A stretch of DNA of 63,891 nucleotides, filler included, from Kipferlia bialata (GCA_003568945.1; 4 parts of 4 records of this genome joined end to end with filler, not necessarily neighbours in it); one strand, 5' to 3'; positions 3,031-63,732 are shown, counted from the whole stretch's first letter. The notes: generated from the sequence alone by a model not told the origin. Translations and numbers: made by a program.

Positions 3031-6017
3031 ATGTCGGAGTGTCTGTTGAAGTGCGACACACTCCGAGTCACACCCTATGAATTGAGTGAGTATCAGTGTA
3101 CTCACCGACACTGATATATACAACAGCCTGATGGCTGGCTTTTTGGGATTTGGTACCGATACCGACACTTGATACTGGCACTCATGCTGATATTGCACTT
3201 TTGATATACACAACTGACCCCAGGCTGGTTCAATCCCGAGGGCAGGGTGTCTGTGTTCTCTGAGACATCCATACCCGAGGACAGTGACGAGGGGGAGAGG
3301 GAGGGGTCAAGGGTAGTAGCCCCCCGACACAGTGCCTCTTCCGATGCCCCCTCTGTGTGTGGGTCTGGGTGCAGTGACACCCTTGAGGAGTGTGTGGTGG
3401 AGGGGTGTCTGCCCCACAAGGCATACGGCACAGCCACTCTCCACAGGCTGGCAGAGGGTGGGCGGGGATGAATACATATATGGACTCTGTGTGCATATAT
3501 ATATATACATATAGGTTCATCTGTGTATTTGTGTTTCGATTTGTGTCTCCGGTCTTTCCTTTGTTTTCAACCTGCCCATGATCTCTTCACTTATCCTCCT
3601 TCCCTCTCTCTCTCCTACCCCTCTGGCCTCACCCCAAGGCGTGTGCATGGTGCTCGGTCAGAACACCCTGGGGTCTTCAATGGTGTGGACTACTGCTGTA
3701 TACATTATTGATGAATCCCCCGCCCCTCCCCCCTCCGTCATTCACTCACCTCCTATATCACTAAGACATTCAGACACGGATGCCCTTATCTATATTTTGT
3801 CTTCTCTTCTATATCTGTCTCTTACCATCACTCTCTTCCTCTCTCACGCAGAGAGACCTGTACAATGGTGACAACCCCCACCCCTGCCTCGCGGTGAGTG
3901 TCACCCTACCCACACCCTCTGCCCCCTGTGCCCCCCAGCCCATAGTAGTATCGACAGAGGCCCTGCCCTACCCTGTGGACAGGAGGGTCCGGGGCATGGC
4001 CCTGGCGGTGGTGGGGGGGAGGGCATATCTACACGGGGGTGGGTGGCAGTATCAGTGATACATATATGTATATACTGTACGATCATGTGTATATAGATGC
4101 ACACCCCCACACCCCAGGCACTAGGAATGAGGGCCACCCCAGCCAGATCAAGGACACCTGGACCATGGACCTAGGTGTGTGTATATATAGGGCAGACATG
4201 CATATCCACCTGGTGTATATGTATATCACTACACTCTCCATTTTTGTAGTGGAACTATGTACCATATCTTTTATGTACCCTTCTCACCCCCTCCTCACCC
4301 CCCCCAGACACTAGACGCTGGGTCAAGCTGGGCAGCAGGAAGAGAAGACACCCCCAGGGCAGCAGGGTGAAGCCCCCCGCCCTGTATCAGGCCATGGCCT
4401 GGGAGGGGGAGGGGCAGATGCTGGTGGCAGGTGGGTATGCTAGAGTGTGACTGACTAGTCGGGTACATAATACACACTGTATATATGAAACTGATGCTGT
4501 TACCGATACATATGCAGGTGGCAGGTGGGTGTGGATACTGTAGTGCAGATAGTAACAGTGACAGTATGTTGATGTCACACCCTCACCCAACAGGAGGTGG
4601 AAATGAGCACAGGCCCCTCAAGGACCTCTACTCATACGACCCAGAAGAGCAGGTAGGAATATATATATCGGAGAGGAGTGCATACTTGTTCCTGTTATGC
4701 ATGTATATGTGATACTTATACTGAGTTACTTATATGCTGATATATACCACCTGACCCCCAGGTGTGGAGTGAGCTCCCCCCCCCATGATAGATATTATAT
4801 ATACATATGATATTGAATTTCTTTTTACACAATATGGATATAGTATATATTATATACACTATACTATATATATAGTATCTAATTAGGTATATACCTAACC
4901 TCTAGGTGTGGAGTCAGCTCCCCCCCATGCACATCCCTGATGGTATGGACAGTGTGGATAGGAGACACGCAGCAAACGACATAGCCAAGCACGCAGTGGT
5001 AGACGGAACGGTATACGTACTAGGTACACTCCCTACTGTTCTCTCGTCTATCTATCTGTACCCATAATTCAGGAGGCCTTGCAGGTATAGACTCCTGGCA
5101 GTCCTACACCCCATCCCCTAAGTGGGAGGGAGAGACAGGGAGGCCAGGGAGGGATGTGTGGCATGTGCTGCCCACCCCTCCATTCAGAAGGGTTGGGTGT
5201 GCACTGTTGGCATATGGTGAGTGACTGAGAGGGGAGGTATACACTCTTACTGTGTTTTTAGTTTGCCTTACCTCTCAGGCACCCTAGTACTAGTGTTTGG
5301 AGGCTATAGTAGGGACGGGGAGGGGTACAACAGGTCTCCAGTCCATGCATACGACACCATATCAGGTATATAGACTGTGTATGCACTATCACTGTCACTG
5401 TCCCATTACCCAGTGAAGCGAGTAGGAGTGTGTTGCAATACATATATATTGCAGTATGCACATTCTCTATATACCAGTCTGACCCCATGCGAGTGGATGG
5501 TGGTGTGTCTGGATGGGCCTAGGTTCAGTGAGGGCACGGCATGCATGGTCAGACACGACACAGCTCTGGTGTACACGGGGCAGGGTGCGGCATGATATAA
5601 TAATGATATAGTACTGATATATGAGTGGTATAGTAATGCATACTGATACTGCTCTGGTGTACACGGGGCAGGGTGCGACACACTGTGTATGATAATGACA
5701 TACTGATACTGATACTGATACCGACACAGCACTAGTGTACACGGGGCAGGGTGCGGCATGATATAGTAGTGATATAGTAGTGGTATAAGAGTGATATAGA
5801 AATGACATACTGATACTGATACTGCGCTAGTCTACACAGGGAAAGATGCGGCAGACACAGACTTGCTGTGTGTAAGGCATAGTCTCTCCTCCCTACCCTT
5901 TGTTCCCATTACTTTTCTTACGTCTCAGGCCATGTAATTCTTAGACTGGAGTCCCTGGCACCCCCTGAGTGTCCGAATGTACATCTCTCACACATGTGGA
6001 ATGAGACAGGGTGGTGA
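3031..6017 (+). CDS. Multi-exon Kelch-repeat beta-propeller protein
   Basis: ATG 3031 (MSECLLKCDTLRVTPYEL|SWFNPEG). Kelch blades ALAVVGGRAYLHGG, GGNEHRPLKDLYSYDPEEQ|VWSQLPPM, HAVVDGTVYVLGG and GTLVLVFGGY...VHAYDTIS|GEW. Last exon GHVILRLES...NETGW, stop TGA 6015-6017. Confidence 0.8.
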
Positions 6018-6674
6018 TACATGCTATGGTTGGTTACCACTCTGTTGTATGCCCCTAGGAGAGAGAGCGTCTCCTATTATACCACTGGACTCCTTATGGA
6101 TGATGCTGAACCAACGAGTGCAGGGTTGTTTGGCCCTCTTGCAGAGCCTTTCTCCCATAGGACACAACGCGTCGACGGGAAGGATAGTACTTGTCATGGA
6201 TCCCCCTGAATGAGTGCGGTCTCCATACACCACCCCCTGTTGTATGACATCCAGCGGTACTGATGGTGTGACATGTGTGACAGGTGTGACATGTGGGGTG
6301 TATAGGATCACTCTGGTGTCGAGGACCCAGTGCAGTGGTGTTAAATGAGGCATCCACGATGAACGTAGGACGTTAGGTAGCCTCACTAACAGTGTCAATA
6401 AGTCTTGCTTAGATGAGTAAATCACCCAGAGTGAACAGGAGTTCATTATATCTCCGGTTTGCAATCGTATCTCGCCGCATTCGCTGCAGAGACATAATAA
6501 ACGAGTTAGCGTTGCCAAACACTCGACGGTCAAGTCGACGTCGCCTGAACCCTTATCCATTCATTGGAATCAAAAACACGTTGAAACGGTGAATTGGGTC
6601 TGTATGAGTCATACTATGACCACTGTCTTAGCTCTGCATTGGGCGCATCCTTGGTCCCTTTCCGCTCAGGTTAT

Positions 6675-7299
6675 ATGGCTGGGGCCAAAGCGGACAAGGG
6701 TGGTCCACAGGCCCTCCTCCGGGCGCCATACTTCGTAGGAGCAGGTATCCACCATATTACCTGCTCATGGGAATGTATAGAACAGCCAAGTATTTGCCTG
6801 AATAAGATAACTAGAGTGGTGGTGTCTCCCCCGCGATACCACGCATTGTCTCTTCTGTTCGGACGTCTCCCCCCACCCCCAGGCAATGTGTACCTCTCTC
6901 TGGTCTGTATCACTGCCCTGGCCGTTGTGTTGCTGCACAGGATAGTGTACATGGAGGACGTCCCACAGCCCATCCCAGTGCTCGTAGCTGACGGAAGCAC
7001 CTTGTTGTTAGGTATATAGCTGGAGTCTGTTCCTGTGTGCATTTCCATGTTACTAGTTGACACATGGGGTATTCAGCAAATTGCTGTGCCGTACTCCCGC
7101 CCATGGGGTCTCTCTCTCTCTCTCTCTCTCTCCCCCCCCCCATCTCCCCCTCTCTTTCTCTCTCTGCATGTGCCTCTAACCCCTAGTCTTTGTGCTGCTC
7201 TGGTTCCACACCGGCATAGTCTCCTTCTGGATCTGTATAGTGTGGTCCCTGTGTCTGTCAGGAGTCTCCCTGTATGAGAACATCACCAAGGACACACCG
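6675..7299 (+). CDS. Hypothetical multi-pass membrane protein, 5' part (3' end not recovered beyond the poly-C tract)
   Basis: Three in-phase exons: MAGAKADKGG..., NVYLSLVCITALAVVLLHRIV..., FVLLWFHTGIVSFWICIVWSLCLSGV. An apparent 5'UTR intron at 6589-6669 precedes the ATG. Confidence 0.55.
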
Positions 7300-7370
7300 G
7301 TATGTTTTATCATTATTGAGTGCACATGGGGGACTCGTCCCCCCCCCCCCCCCCCCCCCCCTTTTTTTTT

Positions 7371-7422
<52 letters not shown>

Positions 7423-9662: not shown

Positions 9663-9667
9663 TCTGG

Positions 9668-9705
<38 letters not shown>

Positions 9706-9881
9706 CCCCCCCTTTCCCTCATATCCTGAACACTAGATCTATCTATTCAGATAATGTATTGTTTCCTTGACCCACCGGTATCCAAACGTATCGATACACA
9801 AATCATGAATATAGCCGCAAAGCCACTTCTCAGTGTAGCACAAGTGAGGAAGTATCTTCACAACAACGTGTCCCTCTATTA

Positions 9882-12072: not shown

Positions 12073-12105
<33 letters not shown>

Positions 12106-12216: not shown

Positions 12217-15200
12217 CTGTGGGAGTGACCAGCTGCAGGTGTGTGACGTCTGCCAGGTGCTGCACAAAGGCTGGGATGGATGTGATGTTGGTGGTGATGG
12301 CCATCTTGTGCTCCCAGTCCAGAATGGTCCACAGGGACCTGGGGGTCAATGGCAGTGTGGGGACAATAGTAATGCCTATGCACTGATATGTGGTTGTATG
12401 AGATATAGTACCTGAACTTCGAGGGTGTGACTGTGCATGGCACTACAAACTCAGTCACGTCGAGGAACACCTCAGTGGTCATGTTGGCCATGGGCTTGCG
12501 GCCCTAGGGGTGAGGAGATGAAGCAGTAACGCATGCATACAATATATATACATAACATATCGAAGTAGATATAATGAAGTGCAGCATAGCAAGTAGTATC
12601 AGTACCTGGGTCAGGTAGAATACTGTGCCGTAGATGACCCCGGCCTCACAGCTTCTGATTCTGACCGAGTACCGGACAGTCTTGGCCTCCAGGGGACCGA
12701 GGGGGAAGGCACGGACCTGGGGGTCAGGAATATATGGAAGTGACTTACACAATACTGACACTGTGAGAGTGTATATGTTCGGTATAAGAATCCTCCCAAC
12801 CTTGGACAGGGACTGGAGTCCCCCTGTTGTTGTGAGCTCCAGCCTCAGATCCTCGACAGTGACCTCGGACCTGAGGGTCAGAGGGATCAGAGAAGGGGAC
12901 CAAGAGTCATGGACCATATCTTCATTATACATATAACGAATGCATATATATATGTTACACCCCACCTGTTGACAAAGAGAACGTCGAGGTGGGCAGCAAA
13001 TGACTCGATTGTGAGGACTGCCTCGGCGTATATACGCTCAGAGTGCCCAGTCAGCTGCACAACGCGAGACAGCCTGGGGGTTGGCAGATGTAGATAAATG
13101 AGAACCTTATGCAATAACTCCCCTCATACCTGTCGAGGTCGTCGAACCCATCGACACCGTCGGCAGGTGCCAGCGATACGGTGTCCCTCTGCTCTGCCTC
13201 GCTGGACTCCTCGTCCTCCTCCTCCTCCCCTATTGCCCCCTGGCCTGCCTCGCCTAGGATGGACATCGTCACAGGGGTCAGGAAGGACGAGGTGGTCTGC
13301 TGGTCGGCCTGGGGGTGAGGGGATAGGACATATCACGTATATAGCTGAGTATCAGTGTTCTACTCTCTAGTCACCCACCTTGACTGCTGTGAGTGCCTGT
13401 CCCTCGGCCATCACTGCCTCTCTGGCAGAGGAGTCCCAAGGGAGGGGGGTCACGGCTGCACATCTAAGGGTGAGGGGGGGATGGGTAGTATCAGAAGAGC
13501 ACTAGCAGAGACATACCTAGCGATAGATGCCCTGAGCCTAGCGAGTGAGGCAGAGTCAACTGGGTTGGTCCTCTGCAGGCACTTGAGGAGAGTGGCCAGA
13601 GTCAGGATGACCCTGGCCCTCCACAGGCCTCCCTCCTTGGCCCTCTCTCCCTCTCTCTCCCCCTCAGCCTTCGTCTCGTGGCTGAGTCTGGCTAGCAGCA
13701 CAGCAAAGGCGTCTGCAACTGTGGAACAGAGGAAGGGGTCAGCCCGAACCCTGCAGTGAGGAATAGGATAAGTGTATCAAAAATTACTGGAGTATGCTCC
13801 TACCTCTCCCCAAGTCTGGTGGAGCACACAGGGGCAGTCAGCTGTCTGTACACCCCGTCCTCCCCTACCACAGTGGATGCAGTTGATGCAGTCTCGGCCA
13901 TGCCTGAGGGGTGAGGGATAGATGTATACACTCACATACACTTTGCCATCAGGAGCATAGTATATATACACCCACCCACCTGATGCCACTGGGGGCAGCG
14001 AGTCAGCTGGGACTGGGCATGCAGACTCCCTCATCAGATCGGCATAGGACACTGCGTTGAGCAGGTGGGTGATGGCAGCAACGGTGCTGTCGGCGTCTCT
14101 GGCCGTATCGACCAGCAGAGCCACGCCCTCTCTCACTCCCGTGTCAGTCTTTGCCTCGCACATGAGCCTAGATGCTACACCAACCAGACCAGGGGACATG
14201 TGGACAAGGACAGCCACCCTCACGCACTGGGCCGCCAGGGCCACCACGCCCATGTCCTCACCCAGGGCCAGGAGGGATATGGTGTCGATGGCAGAGGTCA
14301 GGGTGGAGCAGGCAGGCATCAGGGGGAGCAGGGAGAGGAGGGCAGAGAGGAAGGGGCCCTTGACCCGCTGGGACTGCAGACCAACCATGACTACAGAGAA
14401 CACGTCCTGGATCCTCACAGTGCCGTTGTTGGAGCCACCGTGGGTGACGCTACGCATCAGTAGGTCCAACACACCCTCTGCCACCTCAGAGGGTCTAGGG
14501 GCGGCATAGAGCTCAGACACGGACTCTAGAGAGACCAGCCTGGGGTTGTCGGTGCAGGCAGCAACAAGGGTGTCGAGGGCAACGTGGGCAATGGGAGGGG
14601 AGATGGAGGGGTTGACCAGGAGGTGGAGGCAGAGGGCAACGGCAGTCTCGTTGGTGGAGTCAGAGAGGGAGGAGTGCAGCAGGACCTGGGGGGGTAAGGG
14701 TTGGGACTGAAATGTAGTAGGGTTTCTAGAGGTGTATTAGGGCTAGTACCTGTGCAGTTGGCAGAAGGAGGGATGCAGCCAGGCCCGGCTTGATGGACCC
14801 CTCATCATCCAGGACAATCTCCATCAGACGGTTGACATGGACTGGTGTGAGGATACATACTGCTAGAAATGTACCAGTGACTGTGTGTTGCCCCACCTGA
14901 CCGCATGTGTCCCTTGAGTGCCCCCCTCTGGAACAGTGCAAGGACAGACCGCACATAGGCAGAGACAAACACAAGGTCAGACCTCTTCTGCTCAAGGAGC
15001 TGGGGGGTGAGCAAGGGGGATAGTGTATGTCAGTTCACTGAAATCAATATACAGTTGACGCAGAGGTGTCTGTACCTCGGCTGTGACCACGTTGGTGAGT
15101 GTCTTGACTGCCAGTCGGGGCTTGGTGGCACACAGCATGTCAAGGCCGACAGCAAACACACTGGACGCAGTCTCGGTGTCCAGAACCTACAGGTGAGGGT

Positions 15201-15822
15201 GAGATAGCAGACACTTACAATACACTGGAATATGCAACATGCATTATATACCTCAGCTACGAGAGCAGGGGCCTCCGGGAGCAGGGTGGGGAAGCGGGTG
15301 TACACCGAACGGAGTAGGGCGCAGGCAGCCTCCCTCACCACAAGGTCCTAGGAGTCAGACAAAATGGACACACTCAATGCATACAAACCATTGTGGAGAA
15401 TGTGGTCAATACATATTCATATATATGCTACCTGGTGAGTGAGGGAGTGTGGCAGCACATCGGTGAAGTGGGCCAGGAGCTCCTTAGCGGGGAAGTCGGA
15501 GAGGGCCCTGGAATTAGAGAGTGCAGTAAGAGTATGAGAAAGAGAGAGAGATAGGGCTCTTGCAGTCCCACCCACCTGAGTGTGTCAGCCACCAGGTACT
15601 CATTGGTACTCTGGAGGTCCTTCCTGATGGAGTTGACAATCAGGATGGTCTCCTGGGGGTGAGTATGGTCCATTCAGCCTCTCCTGCTACTGATATGGTA
15701 TATATATATCCCTCTCTGGCCATACCTGCTTGAGGGACCCGTCCTCGGCATAGTAGTCCAGAAGGGGCCAGAAGAGGTGGGCGATGCGCTTCAGCTGCTT
15801 GTCATGGGAGGGGGACACATTC
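12217..15822 (-). CDS. COPB1: Coatomer subunit beta (beta-COP), lacking the N-terminus (contig end) and the last appendage residues
   Basis: SHDKQLKRIAHLFWPLL...ETILIVNSIRKDLQSTNEYLVADTLR matches the adaptin-N region of beta-COP. LSRVVQLTGHSERIYAEAVL...LDVLFVNR and KFRSLWTILDWEHK match the beta-COP appendage motifs (QLTGFSDPVYAEA, FR.MW..FEWENK). Confidence 0.9.
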
Positions 15823-16411: not shown

Positions 16412-19400
16412 GTTCAGCCGTGTTGTGTCCTGGGTCGACCCCATCCCTGTGCTCAAGAAACTGAGACACTGCCTGAAGAAGGCACCCAAGATAGAGTGCA
16501 TTCCACACCTGGAGAGGTACGATGCAGTGTGTCATCCTTATTATAGTGGTGTTGCCCCTCCCTTCCCCCATTGTTCCTCTGTATTCATTTTATTTCCGCT
16601 ATTATGTAACCTTCTTACTCTAGGATATGCACTCGTCTGGCCCAGTCCATGGACAACACGCAGGTAGGGATGTGTTTGGTACTTATATACTTATATATTT
16701 GTATGTATTACGGATCCCTTGCAAATACCTCCTGACTTTGGGATTCTACTCCCAGGTCTGTCATATTGAATATGGTATGTTAGAACATTGTCACATTACA
16801 GTATCATATGCTTCAATTCCCACCCCAGGCCCATGGAGTCCATCTCGAGGCACTGAAGGTGTATGAGATTTTGCTCACAAGGTGTGTTCATAGTGATTGG
16901 TGTATCTCTTCCTGTTCCCGTCCTGATTTACTGAAAGAGGAGAGTCAGAGCGTCATTATGTGTTCATTCATCTACTGACCCCCCAGGCTCACCCCCTGCC
17001 AGGTTGCTGCCCACCTCCCTCTCTTTGCAGTTGGACTGTTCCCAGTATACGCACACGCAGGCATCCCAGTCAAGGTTCGGACTCTCTCTCTCTCTTTATG
17101 TCTCCCACTCCAATCTCTATATGTGGCTATGGGTCCTCTCTCTCCATTGAGTGTTGGTACCTATAGCAATTCTCTCGTTATACTCTCCTCTCACCCCCAG
17201 GGCCCCTATCTGCAGCTCATGTCCAACCTGCTCAGCACCCTGCAGGACCCAAGGGCACCAAAGGTGAGACATATATCTATCTATATACATATATGATAGT
17301 ATTGTCTAATTACACATTCACAATTATTGTACCCAAGGGCACCCAAGGTGAGATGGAGTGTATCCACATAGTCATTGTCGTCCTTTGTCTCTCTGACCAC
17401 TAGGGCACTGCCTCCCTCGCTGCCAGGTCCTTCCCAGGTCTCGTGCCTGCCGCTCTTGCAGGTATCAGTTGCCAGTAGGATTGCATCTCTCTATGCATGA
17501 CACTCTTTCTACACGATATTTTGTTCTCTTTGCATTGTGCGTTCTACCCCCCAGGTCTCAAGGAGGCCCCGAGACGTCTCACAGACCCAGTCAGACAGGC
17601 ATCTACCAAGGACGCTAGGTTAGGATATGTATGTATATAGTATGAATATAGATATACATATATTCTCGTGTATATTAGGTATGTCAGTCAGACAGGCATC
17701 CACCAAGGACGCTATGTTAGGGTATGTATGTATATATATATACATGTTCGTATAAATATGTAATGCCAGTCAGACAGACATCCACCAAGGATGCTGGATG
17801 AGTGTATTTTGTTCTTTGTCTTCTGACACCGGGTGTCTATCTCTCTCCACGTATAGTGACCTTTGACCCACTCACCCACAGAGATATCCTGGGTCTTCTG
17901 ATGAGTGGGGACCCTGCCTTCTTCTTCAGTAACATGTGGAGGTGTATAGGTACATACATGTATGTAATCATACATACGAATATATATGTGTATACATGTT
18001 CACTTCGTCTGATCCTGCCTTCTTCTTCAGCAACATGTGGAGGTGCATAGGTACAGACCACAAGTAATATATATGTGGGTGGCTTATATGTCTATACTTT
18101 CATATATATACTTCCACTTCCTCTTATTCTTCAGGAGCCATGCCCTCCCTGCGTCTCCAGTCCCTGACCTATCTGACAGAGTATGTGGAGGCAGTGGCAG
18201 GGGCAGCAGTCACACCCACAGGTATATATATAGTGATATATATATATGTAAAAATACATATATGTATATGTGGTTACTATACATGGTATGTCGAGGCAGT
18301 GGCTGGGGCAGCAGTCACACCCACAGGTACATATATACTAATGCATATTATATATGTATATATATGAGTATGTGGTTACTATTCAGAGTATGTCGAGGCA
18401 GTGGCTGGGGCTGCAGTCACACCAACAGGTGAGACACGGGCCACAGTTCACTCTCCCATTCAGTCATTCCTTCATTATCTCATTCCATATGTACAGCATA
18501 TATTCATATATTATCCCCCTTCCTACCCTGACCCCAGTGACGTCAGATGCCGACTTCGAGGAGTCCTATGAGGGCAGCATGGGTAGTATCATGGACGAGG
18601 CCAGCATGGGGAGTGTGGCAGATAGAGAGCCAAGGCGGAGGAGGGGGAGGGGGAGGGCCAGAGAGACCAGGCCCAGCCCTGCACCCACCTCTCCTACCAG
18701 CCACCTGCACTCACTCTTCTACCCCCAGCCACACTGCAGGATCGTGTCCAGTCTCCTGACGGCTCTGGAGGTGGGTACACTCATACAGTACCATTCAGTG
18801 AAGTACTGTTCTTGTATGTATTAGTATAACAGTTATTTCGTATATATGTATATACTCTCCTTCTTCTCCTCACCTCAGGTCACTGACGATGTTGCCGTTG
18901 TCCGTAAGGCTGTCAACCTCCTCATCCTCCTTCCCTTCCAGCCCATGCCCGTGTCACCCGCTGCAAAGGCAGCACTGGCAGGGGGGCTACTCAGGTATAA
19001 CTACTATTATATTCAATACCTTGTGTGGACCTACTTATGTATGAGACTGACTCTCACCCCCAGCCTAGTGCGTGTCCAGGAGGCCTCCTCCCTATTGTAT
19101 ATACATAATTAATAGTATTTTACAGTCTTTATGCTATTATGCTGTATATATATACATGAGTAAACTACTCACTCCCAGCCTCGTGCGTGCCCAGGACGCC
19201 TCGTCCCTGAGAAAGGCCACCATCTACATTGGCCAGGACTTTGCATACTGTGCCCCCTACCTACTGTCAGCTGTGCACAGGATCATGGCACACAAGGACA
19301 GGGCTCACAGACAGCAGGTACATGTACTAGTCTATATAAGTAACGTATATATATACATAATTGTATGGCACACAAGGACAGCGCTCACAGACAGCAGGTA

Positions 19401-22400
19401 TACATACTCGTATATATATATATATGTGTGTGTGTACCATATACCTATATGTGAATGCAATACTCACCCCAGGTTCTTGTCCAGAGCCCTGCTGGCCGTG
19501 ACGTGCTTCTGAGACCCATTGCCCTGCTCAGACTCATTCTGACAGGTGTATTGGATTCATATACATGCTGGAGAGTAACCACTGTCATAGTGCCACTATT
19601 ACTATGAATGTTGTTAAGTATGTATATTAACCTTACCTCCAGGCTGGGAGATTGGCGACATGAACGATGTGGCCCTTGTCAATGTTCCAGCATTCCTGTA
19701 CAACAGAATAGTGCAGGTATCTAGTTTAGTCATCAGCATACCGAACACTCTACATTTCTGCATGGAGTGTGATAGTCTCCCCCACCCCCAGGTCCTGCTC
19801 CTGTACACGGGTTGTGTACATGTATAGTAATGATATATAATTGTGGTAATTACAATGTCTTCGAAGAATGTATGCTTCTCCTCACCCCCAGGTCCTGCTC
19901 CTGTACATGGGCAGTGTGCGTAGTGCCGAGGCCTCAGCTCCTGAGTCCTCTGTGGATGCCTCTGCCATAGTGTCCCCTGCAGTGCACGCCCTGCTCAAGA
20001 GGACAAAGGGGAACCTGCTGTACAGGTATATATATGCACACTATCTCTTTCATAATGTAAGATTTTGCTCTGAATAGGTTCTAGTTCTCTCATGTAGCCA
20101 CACAACCTCACCCCCAGGGCTGTGCTGCGTGTCATTGTCTATGGTGCACCCAGGGATCCCTTGGCCCCATACGATCCTGAGGTATGTAAATGAACGCAGT
20201 CAGGATCACTATTAACCAAGAGTGATGTGTTCTGGTTGGTGTATGCCCGTGTTTGTCTTTCACCCCAGGGTCAACCCCCCAACCGTGTGGAGCACTCAGA
20301 GTTCAACCTGCCCGGGTGTCTCTTTGAGTCTGACAATGGTCCCCTCAACAACACAGGTATCAGTATATAGATCCGAAACTGATACTGGTGCTGATGCGGG
20401 TACTGATACCCAGGAGTGGATCTGCTGGCGTCTGTTCTGGATGTCATCCCTCCCCTGCATGTCTCGGAGACTGAGGTATCAAGTATGCATATACATATGT
20501 ATATGTATGGATCCAATAGCATTTTTGTTGGGTATTATCCAGTTGCTATTCTTACTCTTTAGGACGCATCCCTCTTCCAGGCCCTCTCCCAGCGCGGAGG
20601 AGAGAGAGAGAGAGATGAGGAGCTCGAGAGCTTTAACCCGTCTGTCGATGGAGACAACGACAGTGTGGTTGAGGACGGAGAGACTCTAGAGCAGGAGAGA
20701 GACGAGCTGGGCCTTGTCGAGTATGACCTACCCGAGTCTGCTGTCGAGTCCTGTCTGGAGGTTGTGGCCAGTCTGCTCTATCGTATTCACGGTATGGATG
20801 CCTCTGACCCTGCCCTTCCTGCCCACCTGTCCCTATGCGCCAGACTGGTCAGACAGTCATTCCCTGTCTCTGCCAGTGCACAGGGCAAGGAGCTCTATCT
20901 GGCGAGGTATGCAAATAATCCACTCTCTACATATGTGTGTATGTAGTAGTTATTGTTGTTCTCCTCACCCCCCAGGTACCTGTGCCGCCCCCTGACCCCT
21001 GTCGACATAGAGTATGACATGCTGGCTGACCACATGCCACACTCCCTAGAGAGTGGGGCACTGCAGGTATATATATAGTATCTATTTATATATACTATTT
21101 ATTTCTATTGTTTACGAAAATGTATAACCAGGGGCACTGCAGGTATGTATTAATAATGACTTTCAAATCAATAATCTTCGAGAATACTTGCGTTAAGTTC
21201 GTGATCTGTCCTTTTTGCTTGAGACTCACCCCCTAGGTTGCCCTAGCCTCTGTCACCAGGGTTGTGGAGGAGTGCAATGGAGACACCGACTGCAGGGGTC
21301 TTTCTGCTGTTCTCACTGCCTTTGAGGGTGTGGTGTCCTCTCTGCACCAGGGGCTGTACGAGGCAGCAAAGTGAGTGCATATTACATGCATAACTGCCTT
21401 ACTATTATTTGATAGTGAACTTCTCTTACCTCCTCAGGCCTGAGTTCTCTACCTTATGTTCCGCCCTTTCTGCTCTGCGCTGCCTCCCCGCATGCAGCCT
21501 CATTCTGGCCATCACAACTCTCTGCAAGGTATTAGCTACGCGGTTGTGGGTCCACACGTGTATTTGTTTCCCACTCACCCCAGGGAGTTGATGCCGACAT
21601 TGGACCCGATGCCCCCTGTGTCTCTGCCCTTCTCTGTCTCTCTCTCTCCCCCGAAGAGACTGAGTCTTATACAGAGGCAGAGGATGCTAGCAGGCTGTTG
21701 TTCAGAGTGCTCTCTGCCGGTCAGACCTGTCTGTCAGGGCCAGTCACCAGGGCACTGCTTCAGGCACTACAGGTGGGGTGTGACAAGTTTAGTGTGTGAC
21801 AAGTTTAGAGTGACAAGGATGTGTTACCGTAGTGTTTGTATTCACTCCAGGACCCCACCGCCGCCCCAGTTCTCACCAGGAGTCTCCTCAGTGTGCTGCC
21901 TGCCCCTACCCACTCTCTCGATACCGAGAGTGAGGGTGCCATGTCCCCCACCCTGACCCTGGGCATCATGGGGCCATGCGTAGTCACTATGCTGAGGGCA
22001 GGTCAGGATAACCCAAACTCTCTATCTCTCTATTTATGTATTTCTCTATTATTTCTCTAAACCATGTGCATATATGCTCTCATCATCAGGCCAGGGCGAG
22101 AGTGTGTTCCGTACCGCTCTCTCCAACGACACCCTCCCATACATCATGGATCCCCTGCTGGACATGTGCCACCCGATCCTCAAGATATGCACAGGTGGGA
22201 CTACTTTTGGTGTTAGTTAATACCCATGAATATATACTGGTTTTTATTGTATTGATATATGTTGAGTTGGTGTCAGACCTGGGATATTATTCTGCCCCTC
22301 TCTCACTTTCAGCCCGTCAGCGACAGATGGAGCCCGAGGCCCACAGGCACAGAGAGAGGGTGCTCTACGCATTGAAGGCATTCGCCGATATTGTTAGGGT

Positions 22401-27136: not shown

Positions 27137-27169
<33 letters not shown>

Positions 27170-54289: not shown

Positions 54290-55134
54290 GCCCCTAATTC
54301 CATAGGCTCCTTCTTTGGCCAGACTGTGGCTGCCAGTGGAGAGTGGGCTATAGTACAGGTATTTACACACATATATATGTATAGATATATATATAGAGAG
54401 AGAGAGAGAAAGAGAGACTGTGGCTGCCGATGGAGACTGAGCTATAGTGCAGGTATATATGATCACCGTATATGTATATATACTATATGACAGTAAGAGA
54501 GAGAGAGAGAGAATGGGATTGTGGGCAGTGAGTGCGGGTATTATACACTATATCGATTAATACTTGTGTATATATCTCCCTCTCTCCCTATATATGTACA
54601 TGTATATCTGCTGTCACCTTACACCCAGGCCCAGAAGGAGCCGCGATCAATAATTATGTATATGTATATATATATATATTCATTTGTAAATTCATTGTAC
54701 TGTCAACCTATGTATTAATATCTCTATCTATATCGACCCTTACACCCAGGCCCAGAAGGAGGCCCGCCCAGTTATTATGAATATTATATATACGTATATA
54801 TATATGAATTGACTAATATATCTCTATCTATATACCTCTACATATATACTCTCATATCAGGCCCAGAAAGAGCCCCGCTCTTCAGATGACAGCACTGCCG
54901 TAGGTACTGCTTCTCTCTCCCCCTCTCTCCCTCTCCCTCTGTTTTCTCCTCGATGTATATATATATATAAGTGTGTTGCAATGTCCTGCTTGTAGGCACT
55001 CAGATGACAGCACTGCCGTAGGTATTGCTACTCTCCCTCCCTCTCCCTCCCTCTCTCACACCATTATTTCATGTACTTCTTCCTCTCCTCTGTCCTCACA
55101 ACACCGCAACACACACTCTCTGTCTCTGTCCCTT

Positions 55135-55169
<35 letters not shown>

Positions 55170-55207
55170 ACGCCCTTATTGTAGGCGCTGCCTTCATGTA
55201 CCACCAG

Positions 55208-55260
<53 letters not shown>

Positions 55261-58200
55261 ACACCCTTATTGTAGGCGCTGCCTTCATGTACCACCAGGA
55301 CTCCCTTGGCCAGTGGGTCTATGACAGGTATGTATACATTTGTCTATATATAATATATGTAATACATATATATAGCGTATTCTATTCAGAGTGTATGTAT
55401 ACACCAGGGCTCCCTAGGCCAGTGGGTCTATGACAGGTGCAGATAGTGTGCATAGTAAGTATGGTATATATACACCATATATACATATAGACCTCTCACC
55501 TCAGCCATCTGCCTGTCCCCGATGCAGATACAGCTCTCTCTCTCCATATATATACTCTCCATACACACACATATATAGAGTATATATACCTTTATACCAT
55601 TAATATCTCACCTCTAAGCCGTCTCCCGGTGCCAGATGCAGAGACCAAGCACATTGGGTACAACATGGCAATAGGTATATACATCTCACACATAGGTATA
55701 TATATCACCCCCCCTCTCTCTCCCTCTAGACCCTTATTCCAGATGGTGACTGGTACTGTTGCTGCTTCTCTCTCTCTCTCTCTCCCTCTAGACCCCTAAT
55801 ACAGACGGAGAGTGGTGTGCTGTTGCTGGTCACAACACCAAGGATCTGTGCAGCTATGTATATCTGTTCCACCTAGAGAATGGCGTATGGACACTGGTGA
55901 GTTAACTCTCTATGCGTATAGTAAACACTATTTCGTCACTTCTATATATATATCATATATATAGTGCTGTCTCTCTAGCTGAATCTCTCCTGGATAGTGT
56001 AACACCCTTCCCTTCCTGGACAGTCATGACTCCCTCACTCCCTCCCTCTCTCTCTCTCTCTCTCTCTTATCAGTAGATTGACACCCTCCCCTCCCCTGGC
56101 CCCCAGGACAGTGATCTCTCTCTCTCTCTCTCTCTCCCTATATATATACAAATATATATATATAAGGCTGACACTTAGATGGACACCCTTCCCTCCCCTG
56201 GACCCCAAGACAGTCAGGGACAGGCAGTGGCAATGGGGGGTATGCTACACTATGCTACACTATTGTATACACATATATATATATTGAATACAATGAGTAT
56301 ATATATATCCATACTATACCTAGGACAGTCAGGGACAGGCAGTGGCAATGGGGGGTGAGATACCCACATAGTATATAATATATATAGTATACTACATTAG
56401 TATGTATATATATATATATATTGCCATATTGTAACCCAGGACAGTCAGGGACAAGCAGTGGCCATGGGGGGTACGATCAGAGATACCATACTATATATAG
56501 TATATAGTATTACATTAGTATATATATCCGTACTATACCTAGGACAGTCAGGGACAGGCAGTGGCAATGGGGNNNNATATATCCGTACTATACCTAGGAC
56601 AGTCAGGGACAGGCAGTGGCAATGGGGGGTAAGGGCATATACATACCATACTACATATATAGTATATAGTATACTATGTATATATATCCGTACTATACCC
56701 AACACAGTCAGGGACAGTGGCCATGGGGGGTGAGATACACATATATACTATACATGTTATGGTATTACATATGTATATAGTATATAGTGTATAGTATACT
56801 ACATAAGTATATATAATCATACTGTACCTAGGACAGTCAGGGACAGGCAGTGGCCATGGGGGGTATGCTACTATTGTATATGTATAGTATATATATGTGT
56901 GTGTGTATCTAGTATATATAGTATATATAGGGACAGACAGTGGCAATGGGGGGTGAGACACACACTCGCTGTACACATTCCTCTATACATACATTATCAT
57001 GTTGGTGCTGTATTTACTAGGCCTAGTATCACATTGTACATTGTAAGGAATACTAGTGATAGGGTACGTAGTAGAAATATGAATGAATAGATATATGTAC
57101 ACGTACTGACTTCTAACTGTAGGCGGTGTGCTAGTTATTGGGTACCCAGACTCACATGAGTACGAGGGAGAGGCGGTGGTGTACAGGTAATCATTACATG
57201 TATACATATACATATACTATATATATACAAGTGTATATACGTATATATACCTGTATATTAGTCACATGAGTACGAGGGAGAGGCAGTGGTGTACAGGTAT
57301 CGGTATTGAGTGTGTGATATACCAGAATGTGTCTTGTATTCACCCCAGACTGTTCCATGGCCAGTACTATCATCCTCTCAGACTTTAGCCATTCGTATAG
57401 TTAATAATCTAGATTCTTGTTCACCATAGACTGTTCCATGGCCAGTACTACCTTGAGGCCACTCTCGTAGGAGCAGACTACATGTTTGCGGCAGGTTATT
57501 AGTCTATTACACATCTACACTATATGTATAGTATACATTGTACACACACACATATATATATATAGTTGTTGTGTCCATGAGTATATACTCTTCTATGTAT
57601 ATATATATATGTATCTCTAGAGGCCACTGTAGTAGGTACAGACTACATGTTTGTAGCAGGTTAGGAGGATACTCTAGCCCTACCGTAAATGTGCTAGGTC
57701 CATATCTGTCAATATAGTATCGATATGCGGTGACCCATAGTGGTAGGCGTATCAGTATAGTCAGTATGTACATAGTGGTAGTTGTAGACTTCCACCATCT
57801 CTCTGATATAGTGCCCTTGTGTTGGTATTAGTAAATCAATGCACTTCCCTCTAACCCTACAGACAATGGAGACTCTGTGGCTATCTCAGCCGATGGGTCT
57901 AGGATAGCCATGGGCTCACTCAACGCGTACGTACCATACTGATTCATATATAGACTACTAATGTAATGACTATGGTATATATACTTGTATTTGTCTATAT
58001 ACTAATAGTATATTGGATTGGGCCATGGGGTCGTTCAACGCGTACGTGCCGTGGTCAATATTTAAAATAATGGAATGACTATACTAACTGACTAACCTAC
58101 TTACTAACGTGACTGGATGGCGACCAGTCGGCAGACCACTTGGTTCATATTTGCCACTCAACAATCATTCGTATACCAATTCTGAATAATGAAGCTACCA

Positions 58201-58233
<33 letters not shown>

Positions 58234-58821
58234 GACATAAGGGGCCAGGTCAATGTGTTTGACTATGACCATCTGACAGCTGAGTGGACACTGACCCAGA
58301 CAGTGGCAGGTATTCATATGCATATATATATATATATATATATTTACTTTATATCTATATAGTATATATAGTCCTATATGTATATATACACTGAAGTGGG
58401 CACTGACCCAGACAGGGGCAGGTATATATATGTATCTGTATATGTATATATATATATCTTATACAGTGGCAGGTATACAGTATATGTATATATATGTTTA
58501 TATATATATATATATATATATTTATATACTTATACAGTGGCAGGTATAGGAAGATATTGTGTAAGTATTGTAGAGACTGATACTATATATACACATATAC
58601 ACATATATATTCTGAGTGGACACTGTCCTAGACAGTGGCAGGTGTGCAGAGTGTATACACTATATACATATACATACATGTACTACCTCAGACAGTGGAA
58701 GGTATGGAAAGAACGATCCCTCTCTCCCCACCGCTGTCTCCCATCTCATCCCCAGCCACCTGTTGGGACGGTCTCTCTCTCTCTCTCTCACTGCCTTCTC
58801 TTCCCCAGCCACCTGTTGGGA

Positions 58822-58860
<39 letters not shown>

Positions 58861-61293
58861 CCTTCTCATCCCCAGCCACCTGTTGGGACGGTGTCTCCCT
58901 GTCTCTCAGTGGAGATGGCTCTACTCTAGCCGTAGGTATGGTGATACAATGGGCATTGTTTGGATAGGTATACATTATAGATATACACTTACACAGGATG
59001 CCCCACCTACAGTGGAGTATAGTAATACTATATGTATAGTATAATGGTATATGTATATCTATATAATTAGACAGATACTAACTCTAGGATGCCCCACCTA
59101 CAGTGGGGTATAGTAATACTATATATGTAGTATAATGGTATATGTATATCTATATATATATATAATTAGACAGATATTAACTCTAGGCTGCACCACATAT
59201 AGTGGGGTGGAGTAATACTATATATGTAGTATATTTCTATATACTAATTCTTCCTATACTGGTGTATGGGTACACCCTAACTATAGGATGCCCCACCTAC
59301 AGTGGGGTTTAGTGACAATATATATATATGTATATCATAGTATCAGTGTCAGTGTCAGTACACAACAGTACAGAATTCTGATACTAACTATAGGATGCCC
59401 CACCTACAGTGCAGTGGAGGATACTGCCGGACAGGTGGAAGTGTTCACAGAGGGACAAGACGGGTGAGTGAATATGAATGTTCACCGCTTCTATATCGCT
59501 TTTACACCGGTATTACATCGCTTTTACATGTGGTGACCGTATATTATTTCAGAGGTGTGTAAGGGGTTACAGATGTACATGACTGTCTACTATCGGCAGT
59601 CTCACCCTGTCTCAGTCCTTAGACAGTGTGTATTGTATAGTTATCAGTATCTCAGGTCCCTGGATGGAGGCAGTATCAGTATCATATATATTGTATATAA
59701 TATTCATCTCTCTCTCTATATAATTATTATATAATAGTATAGTGATATATACTTACACCAGTCTCACCCTCTCCCAGTCTCTGGATGGAGGCAGTGTGTA
59801 TTATACATTAATTTATGTATTCATATATATATTCATATATGGTTTACATATATATATATATATGTGTTAGTATATATTTACACCAGCCTCACTCTGTCCC
59901 AGTCTCTGGATGGAGGCAGTGTGTGGTATGCCACATTTGGGTACTCGCTAGGTATGGATAGTGGCATATAATATAATATACATTTTGTGTATATATAGAT
60001 GTGCTATTTGCCTTATAATATATATACATGGAGAGAGATAGGCAGTGTGTGGTATGCAACATTTGGGTACTCGATAGGTAAATTGAATACCTGTGTATGT
60101 ACACATAAGTTTTACATTCATTGTCTAAATATCCCACTAGGTAGTTCGTGAACGTGTATATACATAAATACTCTATACACTCAGTATCTATATGTATCTG
60201 TCAGTGACCCGTGTTGACCTACTTTGACCTGCATTGACCTATCGTGACCTATCTCGATTCATCTTGACCTATCTTGACCTCAGACATGTCCAGTGATGGA
60301 GATACACTGGTTGTAGGGGCAACATTAGACGACAGGTGAGTGTATGCGTTCATTATTCCGTGGTCAATGTCGAGAGTCTATATACTTTGGTACGTCCATA
60401 CTAGGGCCTAGTATCGCCTTTCATGTCTGTGTTATTGCCCACTACGCTTCGAAATGTCATTGTGCTAAACCTTATGCTAAGGAATAGCATATTGTTTATA
60501 TATAGTGTCATTGTGCTAAACGTTATGCAAAAGAATAGCATAGTGTATATATATACGTACACATATAGCGTATTTTTGTACTATCTCCAATATTTATATA
60601 TAATATCTATGTATATATCCATGTATATATGCAAATATTCTAACGCCAGCGTCTATGTGTACACTCTTGCCGGGGGCCTGTACATATTAGCAGACTGGGA
60701 GACCACAACTGACGACTCAATGCTAGGTGTGCATATATTTGTATATCTATATTTGTATATATATCTTTGTTAACATGCATACTATATATAATGTATTTAC
60801 TGACACACTGTTGCCCTCAGGTATTCTCACTCTCCTTCTCTCTATATCTATATCAGACGACTCAATGCTAGTTGCTCTTCCCCTGAAGTGTTTTCTATCT
60901 CATTCTCTCTCTCTCCACACCCTGACACTCGGCCATTCTCTCTACACCATAACCTTAGGCCACACTGTTGCTCTAGGGGGTGCTGGTGAGGATGTTGCCC
61001 TCGTTGGAATGGCCAACACCAGCAACGCGAGGGGGAAGGTGGGCTTACATATATACATGCACATATATGTGCGTATGATGTATTCTCATGTACAAAGTAC
61101 GCTTGGGGAATGGTAGTTCTATATATCCTCGCGAGGTGGCAGCACTATTATCAATAATAGGAATTGGAGTGTTGCTAAGTTGTCTATTTCTTCCCTATAT
61201 TACTTGTGACAGTATATGGTAGTGATACTGACATACTATGAGTGTCAGTACACTTATCCGTAGGTCGGTGTCCTGGATCTGACACTTCTATAG
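53662..61293 (+). CDS. Secreted FG-GAP-repeat-like beta-propeller protein
   Basis: Signal-peptide-like MRLCLLATLCCVSLCMCSVWS. Blades GSFFGQTVAASGEWAIVQA, GAAFMYHQ, IGYNMAIDGEWCAVAG, GDSVAISADGSRIAMGS, SLSLSGDGSTLAVG, FGYSLDMSSDGDTLVVGA and LGHTVALGG. Ends VGVLDLTLL, stop TAG 61291-61293. Confidence 0.8.
56209..56955 (+). repeat. Array of ~8 copies of an exon 3' end plus donor (GACAGTCAGGGACAGGCAGTGGCAATGGGG|GT) separated by TA-rich spacers
   Basis: Copies near 56209, 56323, 56440, 56543, 56597, 56703, 56832 and 56931. Confidence 0.9.
58994..59411 (+). repeat. Array of 5 copies of acceptor plus exon 5' start (YAG|GATGCCCCACCTACAGTG)
   Basis: Copies near 58997, 59087, 59187, 59287 and 59394; only the last continues as a full exon. 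Confidence 0.9.
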
Positions 61294-61827
61294 GAGGACC
61301 TTGGTGTTCTTAGGCGCTAATGTGGTCAGTCCCATTGGACATTGATGGAAGTTCTACCAGTGGCACAAGGCTCTACCACCGTTGACGGCGAGAAATCAGT
61401 GAGTAAGGTGTATGAATAGAACAAGAACTGTATTGACTTCCATTGGAAGTTCCTGTATGGATGGATTCGGTCTGACTTTGTAATGTATTTGTCTATTATA
61501 AATGTCTTATGTGTTATCTGGGGAGTTGTTAATCAGTGCCTGACAAGTTTAGCTCCAGAAACTCTTAGGATCTCTTGGTCGTGGCTATAACAGAGCTAAC
61601 GGCAGGTATAGCAAGAGTTACACTGTGAGCAAAGAGAGCAGAGGCCAAGACAAACAATGGTCTGCCTGCTTCGGAGACAAATTGTGTCACACCATCACTA
61701 TCATCAGGTTGTCAAGACTGGAAACGAGTCGAGCCCATCCGAACCCTTCTCCCACGTGTCCCTAACTCTTTTCAAGTAGAGGCTGGTTGGACAAATAAGC
61801 AGTCCGATCATCATTATTGGGTTCCAG

Positions 61828-62490: not shown

Positions 62491-62814
62491 GTGATCTGTC
62501 AGACTATGGTGTGGGCTTGCATCAGTAGTCGTGATGAGATCTAGTGTGTGATACATGAGTTGAGATAGAGAGAGAGAGAGAGATAGAGATAGATGGCTAT
62601 GCGAGCAGAGTGCATCGTTACACTGTTTCCCTTTTCATAGCCACCCCCCCACATATACATGCTGGCTACACCTGGAGGAAGGATTTACCATTATTGTCCA
62701 CTCTTTGCAGTGCAAAGTGCAAATTGCACTTCTCTGTACCTGATACTTGTGTATATGCAACCATACGGATTGGGCTCGCGTTCAAGAATTGTGCCCCCCC
62801 CCCCCTGAACACAG

Positions 62815-62975
62815 GAAATGCACTGCTGCTGACATCTCCCAGACCCCCCTGAGGCACAGGTCTTTCTCTCTCTCTCTCTCAGTACCTGCAACACATACTC
62901 TCAGATATTGCAACCCTGTCTCTCAGATGTCCAGTGTTCTCTCTCACTCACACACACACACTCATACATGCATGC

Positions 62976-63011
<36 letters not shown>

Positions 63012-63732
63012 CCCCCCCTTCTAACCCTCAGGTCGATGCCACTGTGTACATCCATGTCGGATCAGACAAGGCCAGGGGCAATGAGACAAACTCTGAGATG
63101 TCGATAGAGTCTAGCCTATCAGCCCTGTCCCTACAGGTAATGTCTCTCTCTCTCTCTCTCTTTCTCTCTCTCCCTCTACACCCCTATATCAGCACTCCAG
63201 TGGCATGGTGCACATCTCTCTCTCTCTCTCCCTCCCTCTACCCCCTTATATCAGCACTCCAGTGGTATGGTCCATCTGTCCCACCTCAAGGCCCTGGGCA
63301 GTGTCACAGGCCTAGGGGGACAGCCCCAGGCACACATACCAGGTATACACTAATACTCTTTGACCTGCTCTAAACTCGACTAACATCCAGGTATTCCTCA
63401 CACTTATATGTATTTATTACATGCTGAGTGTATATATACATTTTTCATATATGCGGAGGGGGACAGCCCCAGGCACACGTACCATGTATATATCACCTGT
63501 ATGTGATACTTCCATACTATTATTTATCTCTGCATTGTCACAGGACTTGTATCAGATTCTCTCTTTGCTCCGTGTTGCTTGGTAGTTCCTGCTCTCTCTT
63601 TCTCTCTCTCTCCGCCCCCTATACTCACCCCCAGTGCTACTAGGCAGCAGGCGTCTAGGCAATGTCACCCTGGACGATAGAGTGGGTGCAGACCACTGGA
63701 TCAGTATCGGAGCATACTTCGAGATCCTCTAG
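62815..63732 (+). CDS. 3' part of a hypothetical multi-exon gene
   Basis: In-phase exons VDATVYIHVGSDKARG...LSLQ | HSSGMVHLSHLKALG...AHIP | VLLGSRRLGNVTLDDRVGADHWISIGAYFEIL, stop TAG 63730-63732. The 5' end is unclear. Confidence 0.55.

What the first reader, a model, noticed from the sequence alone, without database searches (positions are those of the whole stretch)
4745..63490. Window-wide 'exon echoes': truncated intronic copies of exon ends that diverge mostly at synonymous sites
Seen: in most genes on all four scaffolds, introns carry 20-50 nt copies of the neighbouring exon's end with its splice site. Donor echoes lie downstream of the exon and acceptor echoes upstream. Most lack the other splice site and fade into (TA)n/(CT)n, yet their differences from the exon are strongly biased to silent codon positions. 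Examples: 48169 vs 48301 (5 silent, 0 replacement); ~27050 vs ~27182 (GCA/GCT, TCC/TCA, GTT/GTC); ~47320 vs ~47420 (ACA/ACG, TCT/TCA, GCT/GCC); ~41045 vs ~41110 on minus (GGT/GGA, GTC/GTG, ACC/ACT); ~17910 vs ~18011 (GAC/GAT, AGT/AGC); ~32560 vs ~32670 (CGC/CGG, ACG/ACA); ~50750 vs ~50845 (GGC/GGA, ATT/ATC). Established: a dead duplicate should accumulate mostly replacement changes in the old frame. Inference: both copies have been under protein-level selection. Possible causes are (a) echoes copied from a diverged allele by template switching, (b) expansion/contraction cycles that swap which copy is coding, or (c) use of echoes in an unrecognised splicing route. Any of these would be an unusual mechanism of intron growth and exon-edge turnover.
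Basis: partly seen in the sequence, partly recalled or inferred. Interest (0 to 1): 0.92.

Follow-up and report, generated by a model that had tools for sequence, protein, structure and literature searches.

The report
Introns that archive dead alleles
In this stretch of the protist Kipferlia bialata, a third of the introns carry a spliced-out copy of the neighbouring exon's end that differs from it the way two working genes differ, likely because DNA repair copied it from a diverged allele, which would leave a record of past outcrossing inside one genome.

Summary
Confirmed and extended. The window is Kipferlia bialata. Echoes lie in 68 of 195 curated introns, donor copies downstream and acceptor copies upstream; wrong-side controls gave 2 and 0. 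DNA contigs at uniform depth span 12 of 35 exon-echo pairs on scaffold 3, which argues against assembler stitching. The spliced MORN-gene contig uses the exon copy and skips the echoes. In 88 pairs: 116 silent, 60 replacement, pN/pS 0.18 (bootstrap 0.13-0.25) against 0.5 or more for a dead copy. New: echo-echo pairs are also silent-biased (0.27); echo codons follow exon codon usage; echo splice sites differ at 36% of positions yet keep consensus. Replacement sites and GT/AG put dead time at 0.02-0.05 changes per site, silent sites at 0.2, flanks at 0.3-0.46. So echoes were working exon ends elsewhere until recently. Best reading (0.6): break repair copied them from a diverged allele or hybrid partner now absent from this apparently homozygous culture. 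No second isolate was found to test this. Scaffold 1 shows no bias, and lenient alignment weakens it.

The parts
35564..45764 (-). MORN-repeat gene (G8), 47 curated exons, 15 of 46 introns with echoes
   Evidence: Pfam MORN on two exons; exon-length sums 1524, 347, 60 and 1318 equal the offsets in a 4030-nt contig of run X2
41104..41124 (-). Acceptor echo of exon 41058-40989, with its own branch-like motif and AG; 3 silent, 0 replacement
   Evidence: skipped by the 201-nt joint, no X2 cover
41547..41582 (-). Donor echo of exon 41719-41636; 3 silent, 1 replacement
   Evidence: skipped by the 157-nt joint, exon copy read with 0 other letters
42078..42244 (-). Array of three acceptor echoes of exon 42026-41953 sharing one silent change
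   Evidence: skipped by the 303-nt joint
39609..39633 (-). Acceptor echo of exon 39553-39438; 3 silent, 0 replacement; acceptor flank unlike the real one
   Evidence: inside DNA contig 38812-39794
32998..33048 (+). Donor echo of exon 32775-32920: far half identical, near half with 9 differences (5 silent, 2 replacement, 2 mixed); GT lost
   Evidence: inside DNA contig 32867-34001 with 0 other letters
32656..32693 (+). Donor echo of exon 32519-32584; 2 silent
18011..18050 (+). Donor echo of exon 17882-17949; 3 silent
18286..18428 (+). Two donor echoes of exon 18135-18221 (2 and 4 silent, 0 replacement); the nearer one has the far echo's variants on its 5' side and the exon's on its 3' side
27182..27230 (+). 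Donor echo of exon 26952-27097; 3 silent
47414..47445 (+). Donor echo of exon 47255-47349; 3 silent
47599..47730 (+). Decaying copies of the last codons and stop of gene G9, separated by (GA)n, past the stop codon
   Evidence: sequence; two scored
48292..48349 (+). Donor echo of exon 48117-48217, 58 nt; 5 silent, 0 replacement; intron flank unrelated (z -0.8)
50750..50781 (+). Acceptor echo of exon 50846-50919; 2 silent
54629..54648 (+). Acceptor echo of exon 54861-54903; 3 silent, 0 replacement in 20 nt
55505..55531 (+). Acceptor echo of exon 55619-55674; 4 silent changes in 4 consecutive codons, 2 replacement
56324..56952 (+). Array of seven donor echoes of exon 56179-56239 with two interleaved silent variants; five have an acceptor-like site at their start; contains an assembly gap
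58997..59304 (+). Array of four acceptor echoes of exon 59394-59463; one diverged copy (4 silent, 2 replacement) lies between two identical ones
48117..52328 (+). Membrane-protein-like gene G10, 11 of 12 introns with echoes
   Evidence: gene model by open frame only
53662..61293 (+). Gene G11 (signal-peptide-like start), 14 of 17 introns with echoes
   Evidence: gene model by open frame only
16412..29091 (+). Large gene G5, 12 of 55 introns with echoes
   Evidence: gene model by open frame only
12217..15822 (-). Coatomer beta gene: echo-free control, short introns
   Evidence: Pfam PF14806 and PF07718 below curated cut-off; 0 of 19 introns with echo
63193..63485 (+). Acceptor echo (63193-63212, 2 silent) and donor echo (63457-63485, 2 replacement) of exon 63255-63342
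   Evidence: this exon matches public protein KIPB_003428 at 100%

Best explanation
The echoes are real, spliced-out fragments of exon end plus splice site that were likely copied into the intron from a diverged working allele (or the other parent of a hybrid) during repair of a DNA break. Shown: the tandem layout, its one-sided geometry, skipping in the one mRNA tested, and a divergence profile like that of two working genes (replacement << silent < intron flank, splice consensus kept). Inferred steps: (1) a break falls in a microsatellite-rich intron while two diverged haplotypes share a cell; (2) the introns are too unlike to pair, so one end invades at an exon of the other haplotype, copies that haplotype's whole intron and 20-50 nt of the exon beyond; (3) it rejoins the waiting end out of register, leaving most of the old intron, an exon fragment and a second intron in a row; (4) only products with one orphan splice site survive, because the spliceosome pairs sites across whole exons; (5) unequal exchange between exon and echo later grows arrays, and about a fifth of echoes may be same-chromosome copies. 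An equivalent route is a same-chromosome duplication followed by replacement of the exon from another allele. The donor haplotype is not in this culture.
For: pN/pS 0.18 in 88 pairs, bootstrap 0.13-0.25; null simulations through the same detector give 37-43% silent against 66% seen. Adjacent echo-echo pairs, both intronic: 27 silent, 21 replacement, ratio 0.27, p 9e-6 against 1. Codon preference exon minus echo 0.13 +/- 0.11 over 110 silent differences, against 0.42-0.59 if half were neutral echo mutations. Echo acceptors differ from the real ones at 5.8 of 16 positions and donors at 2.3 of 7, yet score 4.9 and 3.3 against 2.1 and 1.4 when half the differences are random; 0 of 1000 simulations reach this. 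Clocks: second codon positions 19 of 842, GT/AG bases 8 of 166, fourfold sites 83 of 397, flanks 0.46 and 0.30. The intron left after removing echo units has median 91 nt against 85 for echo-free introns. In most arrays the farthest copy has the unrelated flank. One fixed divergence plus 20% identical copies reproduces dispersion 1.21 and 24% zero-difference pairs (1.23, 20%). No second haplotype or expressed homeolog was laid at 90% likeness. Fornicates are reported to lack Ku and Rad51A and to use two Dmc1 paralogues, and Carpediemonas is predicted haploid and sexual (PMC8516963, section 8 and passages); DMC1 is described as mismatch-tolerant (PMC7809202, listing).
Against: No donor allele was observed: two metagenome scans and two protein searches found no second isolate. 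Differences are not clustered within echoes (27 pairs, p 0.69) and show no gradient from the splice site, so mosaic tracts are anecdotal. Spacer lengths (median 73, none under 35 of 81) reject a uniform break (p 3e-22) but also my 'longer piece kept' version (p 5e-5) and a whole intron (p 4e-4). The implied divergence (0.2 at silent sites, more in introns) is very high for alleles of one species. Scaffold 1 shows no bias and lenient alignment weakens it. Junction microhomology was seen by eye only. X1 may be the sample behind the assembly; both runs are one sample and contigs only.
Confidence: 0.6

Rival explanations
1. Old same-chromosome duplicates are kept usable by indirect selection: exon and echo recombine often, the echo then becomes the exon end, and damaged echoes are purged.
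For: Predicts the same low pN/pS, kept splice consensus and diverged flanks. Arrays show signs of unequal exchange: the nearer echo at 18286 is a 5'-echo, 3'-exon hybrid with an exon-type spacer.
Against: My estimate: a silent distance of 0.2 caps the exchange rate near ten times the mutation rate, so selection works only if population diversity is about 0.1 or more, at which point allelic differences would dominate anyway. Without indirect selection the ratio cannot fall below about 0.5. No collapsed form was among the listed DNA joints (the list was cut).
Confidence: 0.15
2. Echoes are used in mRNA in a minor, stage-specific or non-canonical splicing route, so both copies are under selection now.
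For: Echo splice sites score nearly as well as real ones (echo equal or higher in 31 of 62 acceptors, 16 of 51 donors). Only 2 of 119 echoes show a gained stop codon. Five echoes of one array have both sites.
Against: Only 6 of 51 donor echoes and 6 of 62 acceptor echoes have the opposite site. The MORN contig matches the echo-free length over four spans and carries exon letters with canonical joints across four echo-bearing introns. One gene, one sample, contigs only.
Confidence: 0.1
3. Ordinary tandem duplication across an exon edge followed by neutral decay; the silent excess comes from exon drift, mutation bias or ascertainment.
For: Explains the geometry and the clean recent duplicates (five zero-difference echoes with matching flanks, z 2.8-7.2). 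Lenient alignment gives a ratio of 0.38-0.48; scaffold 1 gives 0.49.
Against: Four mutation spectra through the same detector never exceed 52% silent in 160 runs against 66%; echo-echo ratio 0.27; splice consensus kept.
Confidence: 0.08
4. Relics of whole duplicated (mutually exclusive) exons, both once in use, of which one end was later deleted.
For: Would give silent-biased divergence and good splice sites.
Against: Remnants should be two-sided, but exon starts downstream occur in 2 and exon ends upstream in 0 of 195 introns, and one of the 2 is an echo of the next MORN exon (my reading); no intact duplicated exon was found.
Confidence: 0.04
5. Assembly artefact: two haplotypes stitched in tandem.
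For: The pairs differ exactly as alleles would; the assembly is fragmented and has gaps inside two arrays.
Against: Eight listed X1 contigs have depth 425-448 and 0-1 other letters, and span 12 of the 35 pairs on scaffold 3, with no dinucleotide run over 14 nt between the copies; no allelic letters were listed in DNA or RNA contigs.
Confidence: 0.03

Closest known systems
Repair-mediated local duplication by synthesis-dependent strand annealing (Pace et al. 2009, PMC2671141; abstract and section 10 read)
   Same: Short, closely linked copies, some holding splice sites; the same repair logic is inferred here.
   Different: There 4 of 824 human events were partial exon/intron copies and the two full duplicated exons had Ka/Ks not different from 1. 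Here 68 of 195 introns carry one and pN/pS is 0.18, which points to a diverged functional template.
Human F7 intron 7 minisatellite with 5' pseudo-sites (PMC1557585; abstract read)
   Same: Repeats span an exon-intron border; downstream donor copies stay silent and the first is used.
   Different: One locus, identical sites, donors only. Here both splice ends, 11 of 13 genes, and founding copies with unrelated flanks and silent-biased exon parts.
Intron gain by tandem genomic duplication of AGGT-containing exon sequence (review PMC3443670, passages read; Gao and Lynch 2009 not held, known only through that review)
   Same: Intragenic tandem duplication reshapes exon-intron structure.
   Different: No new intron is made; existing introns grow from about 85 to about 250 nt and the original splice sites stay in use.
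Paralogous MDSs in ciliate scrambled genes (PMC9797194, search listing only; details recalled)
   Same: Partial copies of coding sequence lie beside the working copy in DNA that is removed.
   Different: Removal here is by splicing; no collapsed form or echo letters appear in the contigs tested.

Membership tests
Repair-mediated local duplication (SDSA type) | Short copy closely linked to its source on the same chromosome | tested here: met
   Site-to-site unit median 97-109 nt; 12 of 35 pairs spanned by DNA contigs
Repair-mediated local duplication (SDSA type) | Copy starts identical to the local source and then evolves without coding constraint | tested here: not met
   pN/pS 0.18 exon-echo and 0.27 echo-echo; met only by a minority of clean recent duplicates
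Repair-mediated local duplication (SDSA type) | Microhomology or filler at the junction | tested here: inconclusive
   Microsatellite next to 42 of 110 faded ends against 23% background; microhomology seen by eye, not counted
Repair-mediated local duplication (SDSA type) | Pre-insertion (empty) allele known from an outgroup or population | not testable with these tools
   No second isolate found
Intron gain by tandem genomic duplication | Duplicated exon sequence yields a new intron using the duplicated site | tested here: not met
   Five RNA joints use the outer original sites and remove the echoes
Tandem duplicated or mutually exclusive exons | Each copy has both acceptor and donor | tested here: not met
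   Opposite site at 6 of 51 and 6 of 62 echoes
Tandem duplicated or mutually exclusive exons | Both copies appear in mRNA | tested here: not met
   No X2 cover on six scored echoes in four MORN introns; rare forms cannot be seen in contigs
Splice-site-spanning minisatellite (F7 type) | Repeat unit crosses the exon-intron border and only the exon-proximal site is used | tested here: met
Splice-site-spanning minisatellite (F7 type) | Units alike along their whole length, intron part included | tested here: not met
   Donor flank z under 1 in 28 of 41 pairs, acceptor flank in 19 of 45; met inside some arrays
Haplotype-stitching artefact | Copies on separate half-depth contigs, allelic letters in reads | tested here: not met
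   contigs, not long reads
Pointer-guided programmed DNA elimination | Collapsed somatic form supplies the mRNA | tested here: not met
   mRNA contig carries the exon copy's letters to the donor, 0 other letters over 41635-41718

The most novel reading that the evidence does not exclude
The Kipferlia genome is a tandem mosaic of two or more strongly diverged lineages: Dmc1-based repair without Ku stacks pieces of the other parent's exons and introns into about a third of introns, so that tens of thousands of dead alleles are archived in one haploid genome, this process sets intron length, and sex or hybridisation in a fornicate can be measured from a single assembly.
Probability: 0.45. Interest if true: 0.9.

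Novelty: new variant of a known kind. Interest (0 to 1): 0.78.

Why it matters
If the pattern holds genome-wide (the species has 124,912 introns, PMC5874029 section 12), most intron length above about 110 nt would come from captured allele fragments, a route of intron growth I did not find described in my searches. It would be sequence evidence of outcrossing or hybridisation in a free-living fornicate, and would give diversity and selection estimates from one genome. It also shows a reduced spliceosome (87 of 174 proteins found, PMC6679479 passages) ignoring consensus-quality orphan donors and acceptors, a large natural test set for exon definition. In practice, echoes misled my own gene finder into false micro-exons.

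Tried and rejected
No whole genome is held, so all counts are for this window. A self-trained gene finder with a low intron penalty turned echoes into micro-exons; models were redone and hand-curated. The last three beta-COP exons keep two internal stops near a poly-C run; they hold no echo but their introns are among the 195. No RNA holder is on record as RNA; X2 is a guess, supported by its spliced contig. Comparing echo variants with heterozygous sites was not possible: no other letters were listed and contigs drop variants. Second-isolate searches: beta-COP exon, none in proteins or metagenome contigs; the 220-aa ORF gave only the species' own protein and 13 weak unrelated loci at 32-44% identity. 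Gradient test flat (ratios 0.15, 0.21, 0.28, 0.13 by distance). Clustering test negative. Exponential (coalescent) divergence gave dispersion 1.64 (5-95%: 1.32-2.04) against 1.21 seen, a weak preference for one fixed divergence. Three spacer-length models all rejected. Five echoes extend across an indel, two of them in multiples of three; not informative. Gene-conversion and single-lineage role-swap models were rejected by argument (ratio cannot go below about 0.5), not by simulation. Gao and Lynch 2009 is not held. Earlier findings: nothing. No supplements were read; the repair-gene table for K. bialata itself (supplement of PMC8516963) bears on the Ku, Rad51A and alternative end-joining step.


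Full report
Setting. The window is four scaffolds of about 15.9 kb joined by N linkers. An ORF at 61828-62487 finds one protein, named KIPB_003428 of Kipferlia bialata, which matches the window at 100% over residues 1-152 and 190-215. The species is a free-living fornicate with 124,912 GT-AG introns; its genome paper has no occurrence of 'duplicat', 'heterozyg' or 'ploid' in the main text (PMC5874029, passages and section 12). No whole genome is held, so every count below is for this window.

Gene models. I curated 210 exons and 195 introns in 15 pieces of 13 genes by splice sites and open frame. Only two are checked against RNA-like data: for the MORN gene four exon-length sums (1524, 347, 60, 1318 nt) equal the offsets in a 4030-nt contig of run X2, and one 80-nt exon of G7 fits its contig (my arithmetic). 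Frames were set without reference to echo differences.

The echoes exist. At score 10 or more, 39 introns hold a copy of the upstream exon's end and 42 a copy of the downstream exon's start; the wrong-side controls give 2 and 0 and exons of other genes 0-0.15. Sixty-eight introns carry at least one; none of 99 introns under 110 nt and 44 of 48 at 200 nt or more. Load differs among genes (p 2e-10), from 0 of 19 in beta-COP to 11 of 12 in G10. Echoes keep their one splice site (GT in 47 of 51, AG in 57 of 62) and mostly lack the other (6 of 51, 6 of 62).

They are not stitched haplotypes. On scaffold 3 the eight listed contigs of run X1 have depth 425-448 and 0-1 other letters and span 12 of the 35 pairs there, with no dinucleotide run over 14 nt between the copies. 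No allelic letters were listed in either run at 90% likeness, so the culture looks haploid or homozygous (inference; contigs drop rare variants, and X1 may be the assembly's own sample).

They are spliced out. Over 40900-42620 the X2 contig (depth 234) has five canonical joints of 201, 72, 157, 233 and 303 nt, six pieces with 0 other letters on the exon copies, and no cover on the echoes. Both a first donor over a nearer echo donor and a second acceptor over an earlier echo acceptor are chosen, which implies that sites are paired across exons (inference). A human precedent for silent downstream donor copies is the F7 minisatellite (PMC1557585, abstract).

The silent bias is real. All 119 pairs (3257 nt): 149 silent, 80 replacement, 3 mixed. 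One pair per exon side (88 pairs, 2518 nt): 116, 60, 3; codon positions 32/19/128; pN/pS 0.16-0.20 by transition weight, p 2e-9 or smaller against the null of one dead and one fully constrained copy; bootstrap 0.13-0.25. Simulating that null through the same detector under four mutation spectra gave 37-43% silent, at most 52% in 160 runs, against 66%. Against this: scaffold 1 (6 pairs) gives 0.49, and a mismatch cost of -0.7 gives 0.38-0.48, probably because alignments then run into unrelated flank.

The echoes behaved as working exon ends. Adjacent echoes, both intronic, differ at 27 silent and 21 replacement sites, ratio 0.27 where 1 is expected. Echo codons are about as preferred as exon codons (difference 0.13 +/- 0.11; 0.42-0.59 expected if half were neutral). 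Echo splice regions differ from the real ones at about 36% (acceptor) and 33% (donor) of positions but keep consensus scores that 0 of 1000 half-random simulations reach; the intronic side played no part in finding the echoes. Second codon positions (19 of 842) and the GT/AG bases (8 of 166) put the time spent dead at 0.02-0.05 changes per site; fourfold sites differ at 83 of 397 and near flanks at 0.30-0.46. Likeness drops at the splice site: 5 of 10 zero-difference echoes of 25 nt or more have flanks no more alike than chance (z about 1 or less). This is the profile of two functional gene copies, so most of the divergence arose while the echo was a working exon edge somewhere else (inference).

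Mechanism. No homeolog or second haplotype is visible in this culture, so the source was likely an allele from a diverged lineage. I propose one-ended repair on the homologue, copying its intron and part of the next exon, then out-of-register rejoining at the microsatellite-rich resident intron; selection leaves only one-splice-site products, and unequal exchange builds arrays. In support, the intron left after removing echo units is of normal size (median 91 against 85 nt), 63 of 68 echo introns but 47 of 127 others hold a microsatellite, and the farthest copy of an array usually has the unrelated flank. Fornicates are reported to lack Ku and Rad51A and to carry two Dmc1 paralogues (PMC8516963 section 8), and DMC1 is described as mismatch-tolerant (PMC7809202, listing). 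Not in support: no clustering of differences (p 0.69), no gradient, and spacer lengths that fit none of three break models. A single divergence with about 20% same-chromosome copies fits the spread among pairs slightly better than a coalescent pool, a weak hint at hybrid origin. The donor allele itself was not found.

Rivals. Indirect selection through frequent exon-echo collapse predicts the same signs but needs similar diversity (0.15). Minor or stage-specific use in mRNA cannot be excluded by contigs (0.10). Neutral duplication (0.08), decayed exclusive exons (0.04) and artefact (0.03) fit poorly.

Comparison and novelty. It works like repair-mediated local duplication (PMC2671141, abstract and section 10) but fails that class's neutral-copy feature, and it is not intron gain by tandem duplication (PMC3443670, passages). 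Six literature searches on the phenomenon and organism returned no description of it; the library lacks most subscription journals. Verdict: observation confirmed; a new variant of a known kind of duplication at an unusual scale and with an unexplained allele-like signature; interest 0.78.

Noticed in passing
window 5556-5880 (+): Four tandem copies of the last codons of gene G2. The first ends in a stop; the last, with about six silent changes in eight codons, runs on into what looks like the gene's older end and a further intron. The duplication may have shortened the protein.
   Followed up: partly
window 47540-47730 and 52300-52395 (+): Stop-codon echoes beyond the last exon of G9 and G10, each next to (GA)n; the 610-nt X2 contig of G9 is long enough to include some of them in the 3' UTR.
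   Followed up: partly
all 81 nearest echoes: No spacer is shorter than 35 nt and no site-to-site unit shorter than 55 nt, close to the shortest intron (48 nt): a possible steric limit on neighbouring splice sites.
   Followed up: partly
window 50956-50978 and 56324-56729 (+): Echoes with both an acceptor-like site and a donor, 22 and 31 nt long, which would shift the frame if included; no RNA data there.
   Followed up: no
window 61828-62487 (+) and 63032-63731 (+): The 220-aa ORF has no Pfam match; the public protein KIPB_003428 joins most of it to the G13 exons. Residues 109-182 weakly resemble 13 metagenome loci L001-L013 at 32-44% identity.
   Followed up: partly
window 498-2819 (+), 12217-15822 (-): Two genes (hydrolase-like, beta-COP) with no echo in 29 introns.
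   Followed up: partly
window 60455-60555 (+): A 50-nt purely intronic tandem repeat at 90% identity: such repeats could calibrate the neutral rate.
   Followed up: no
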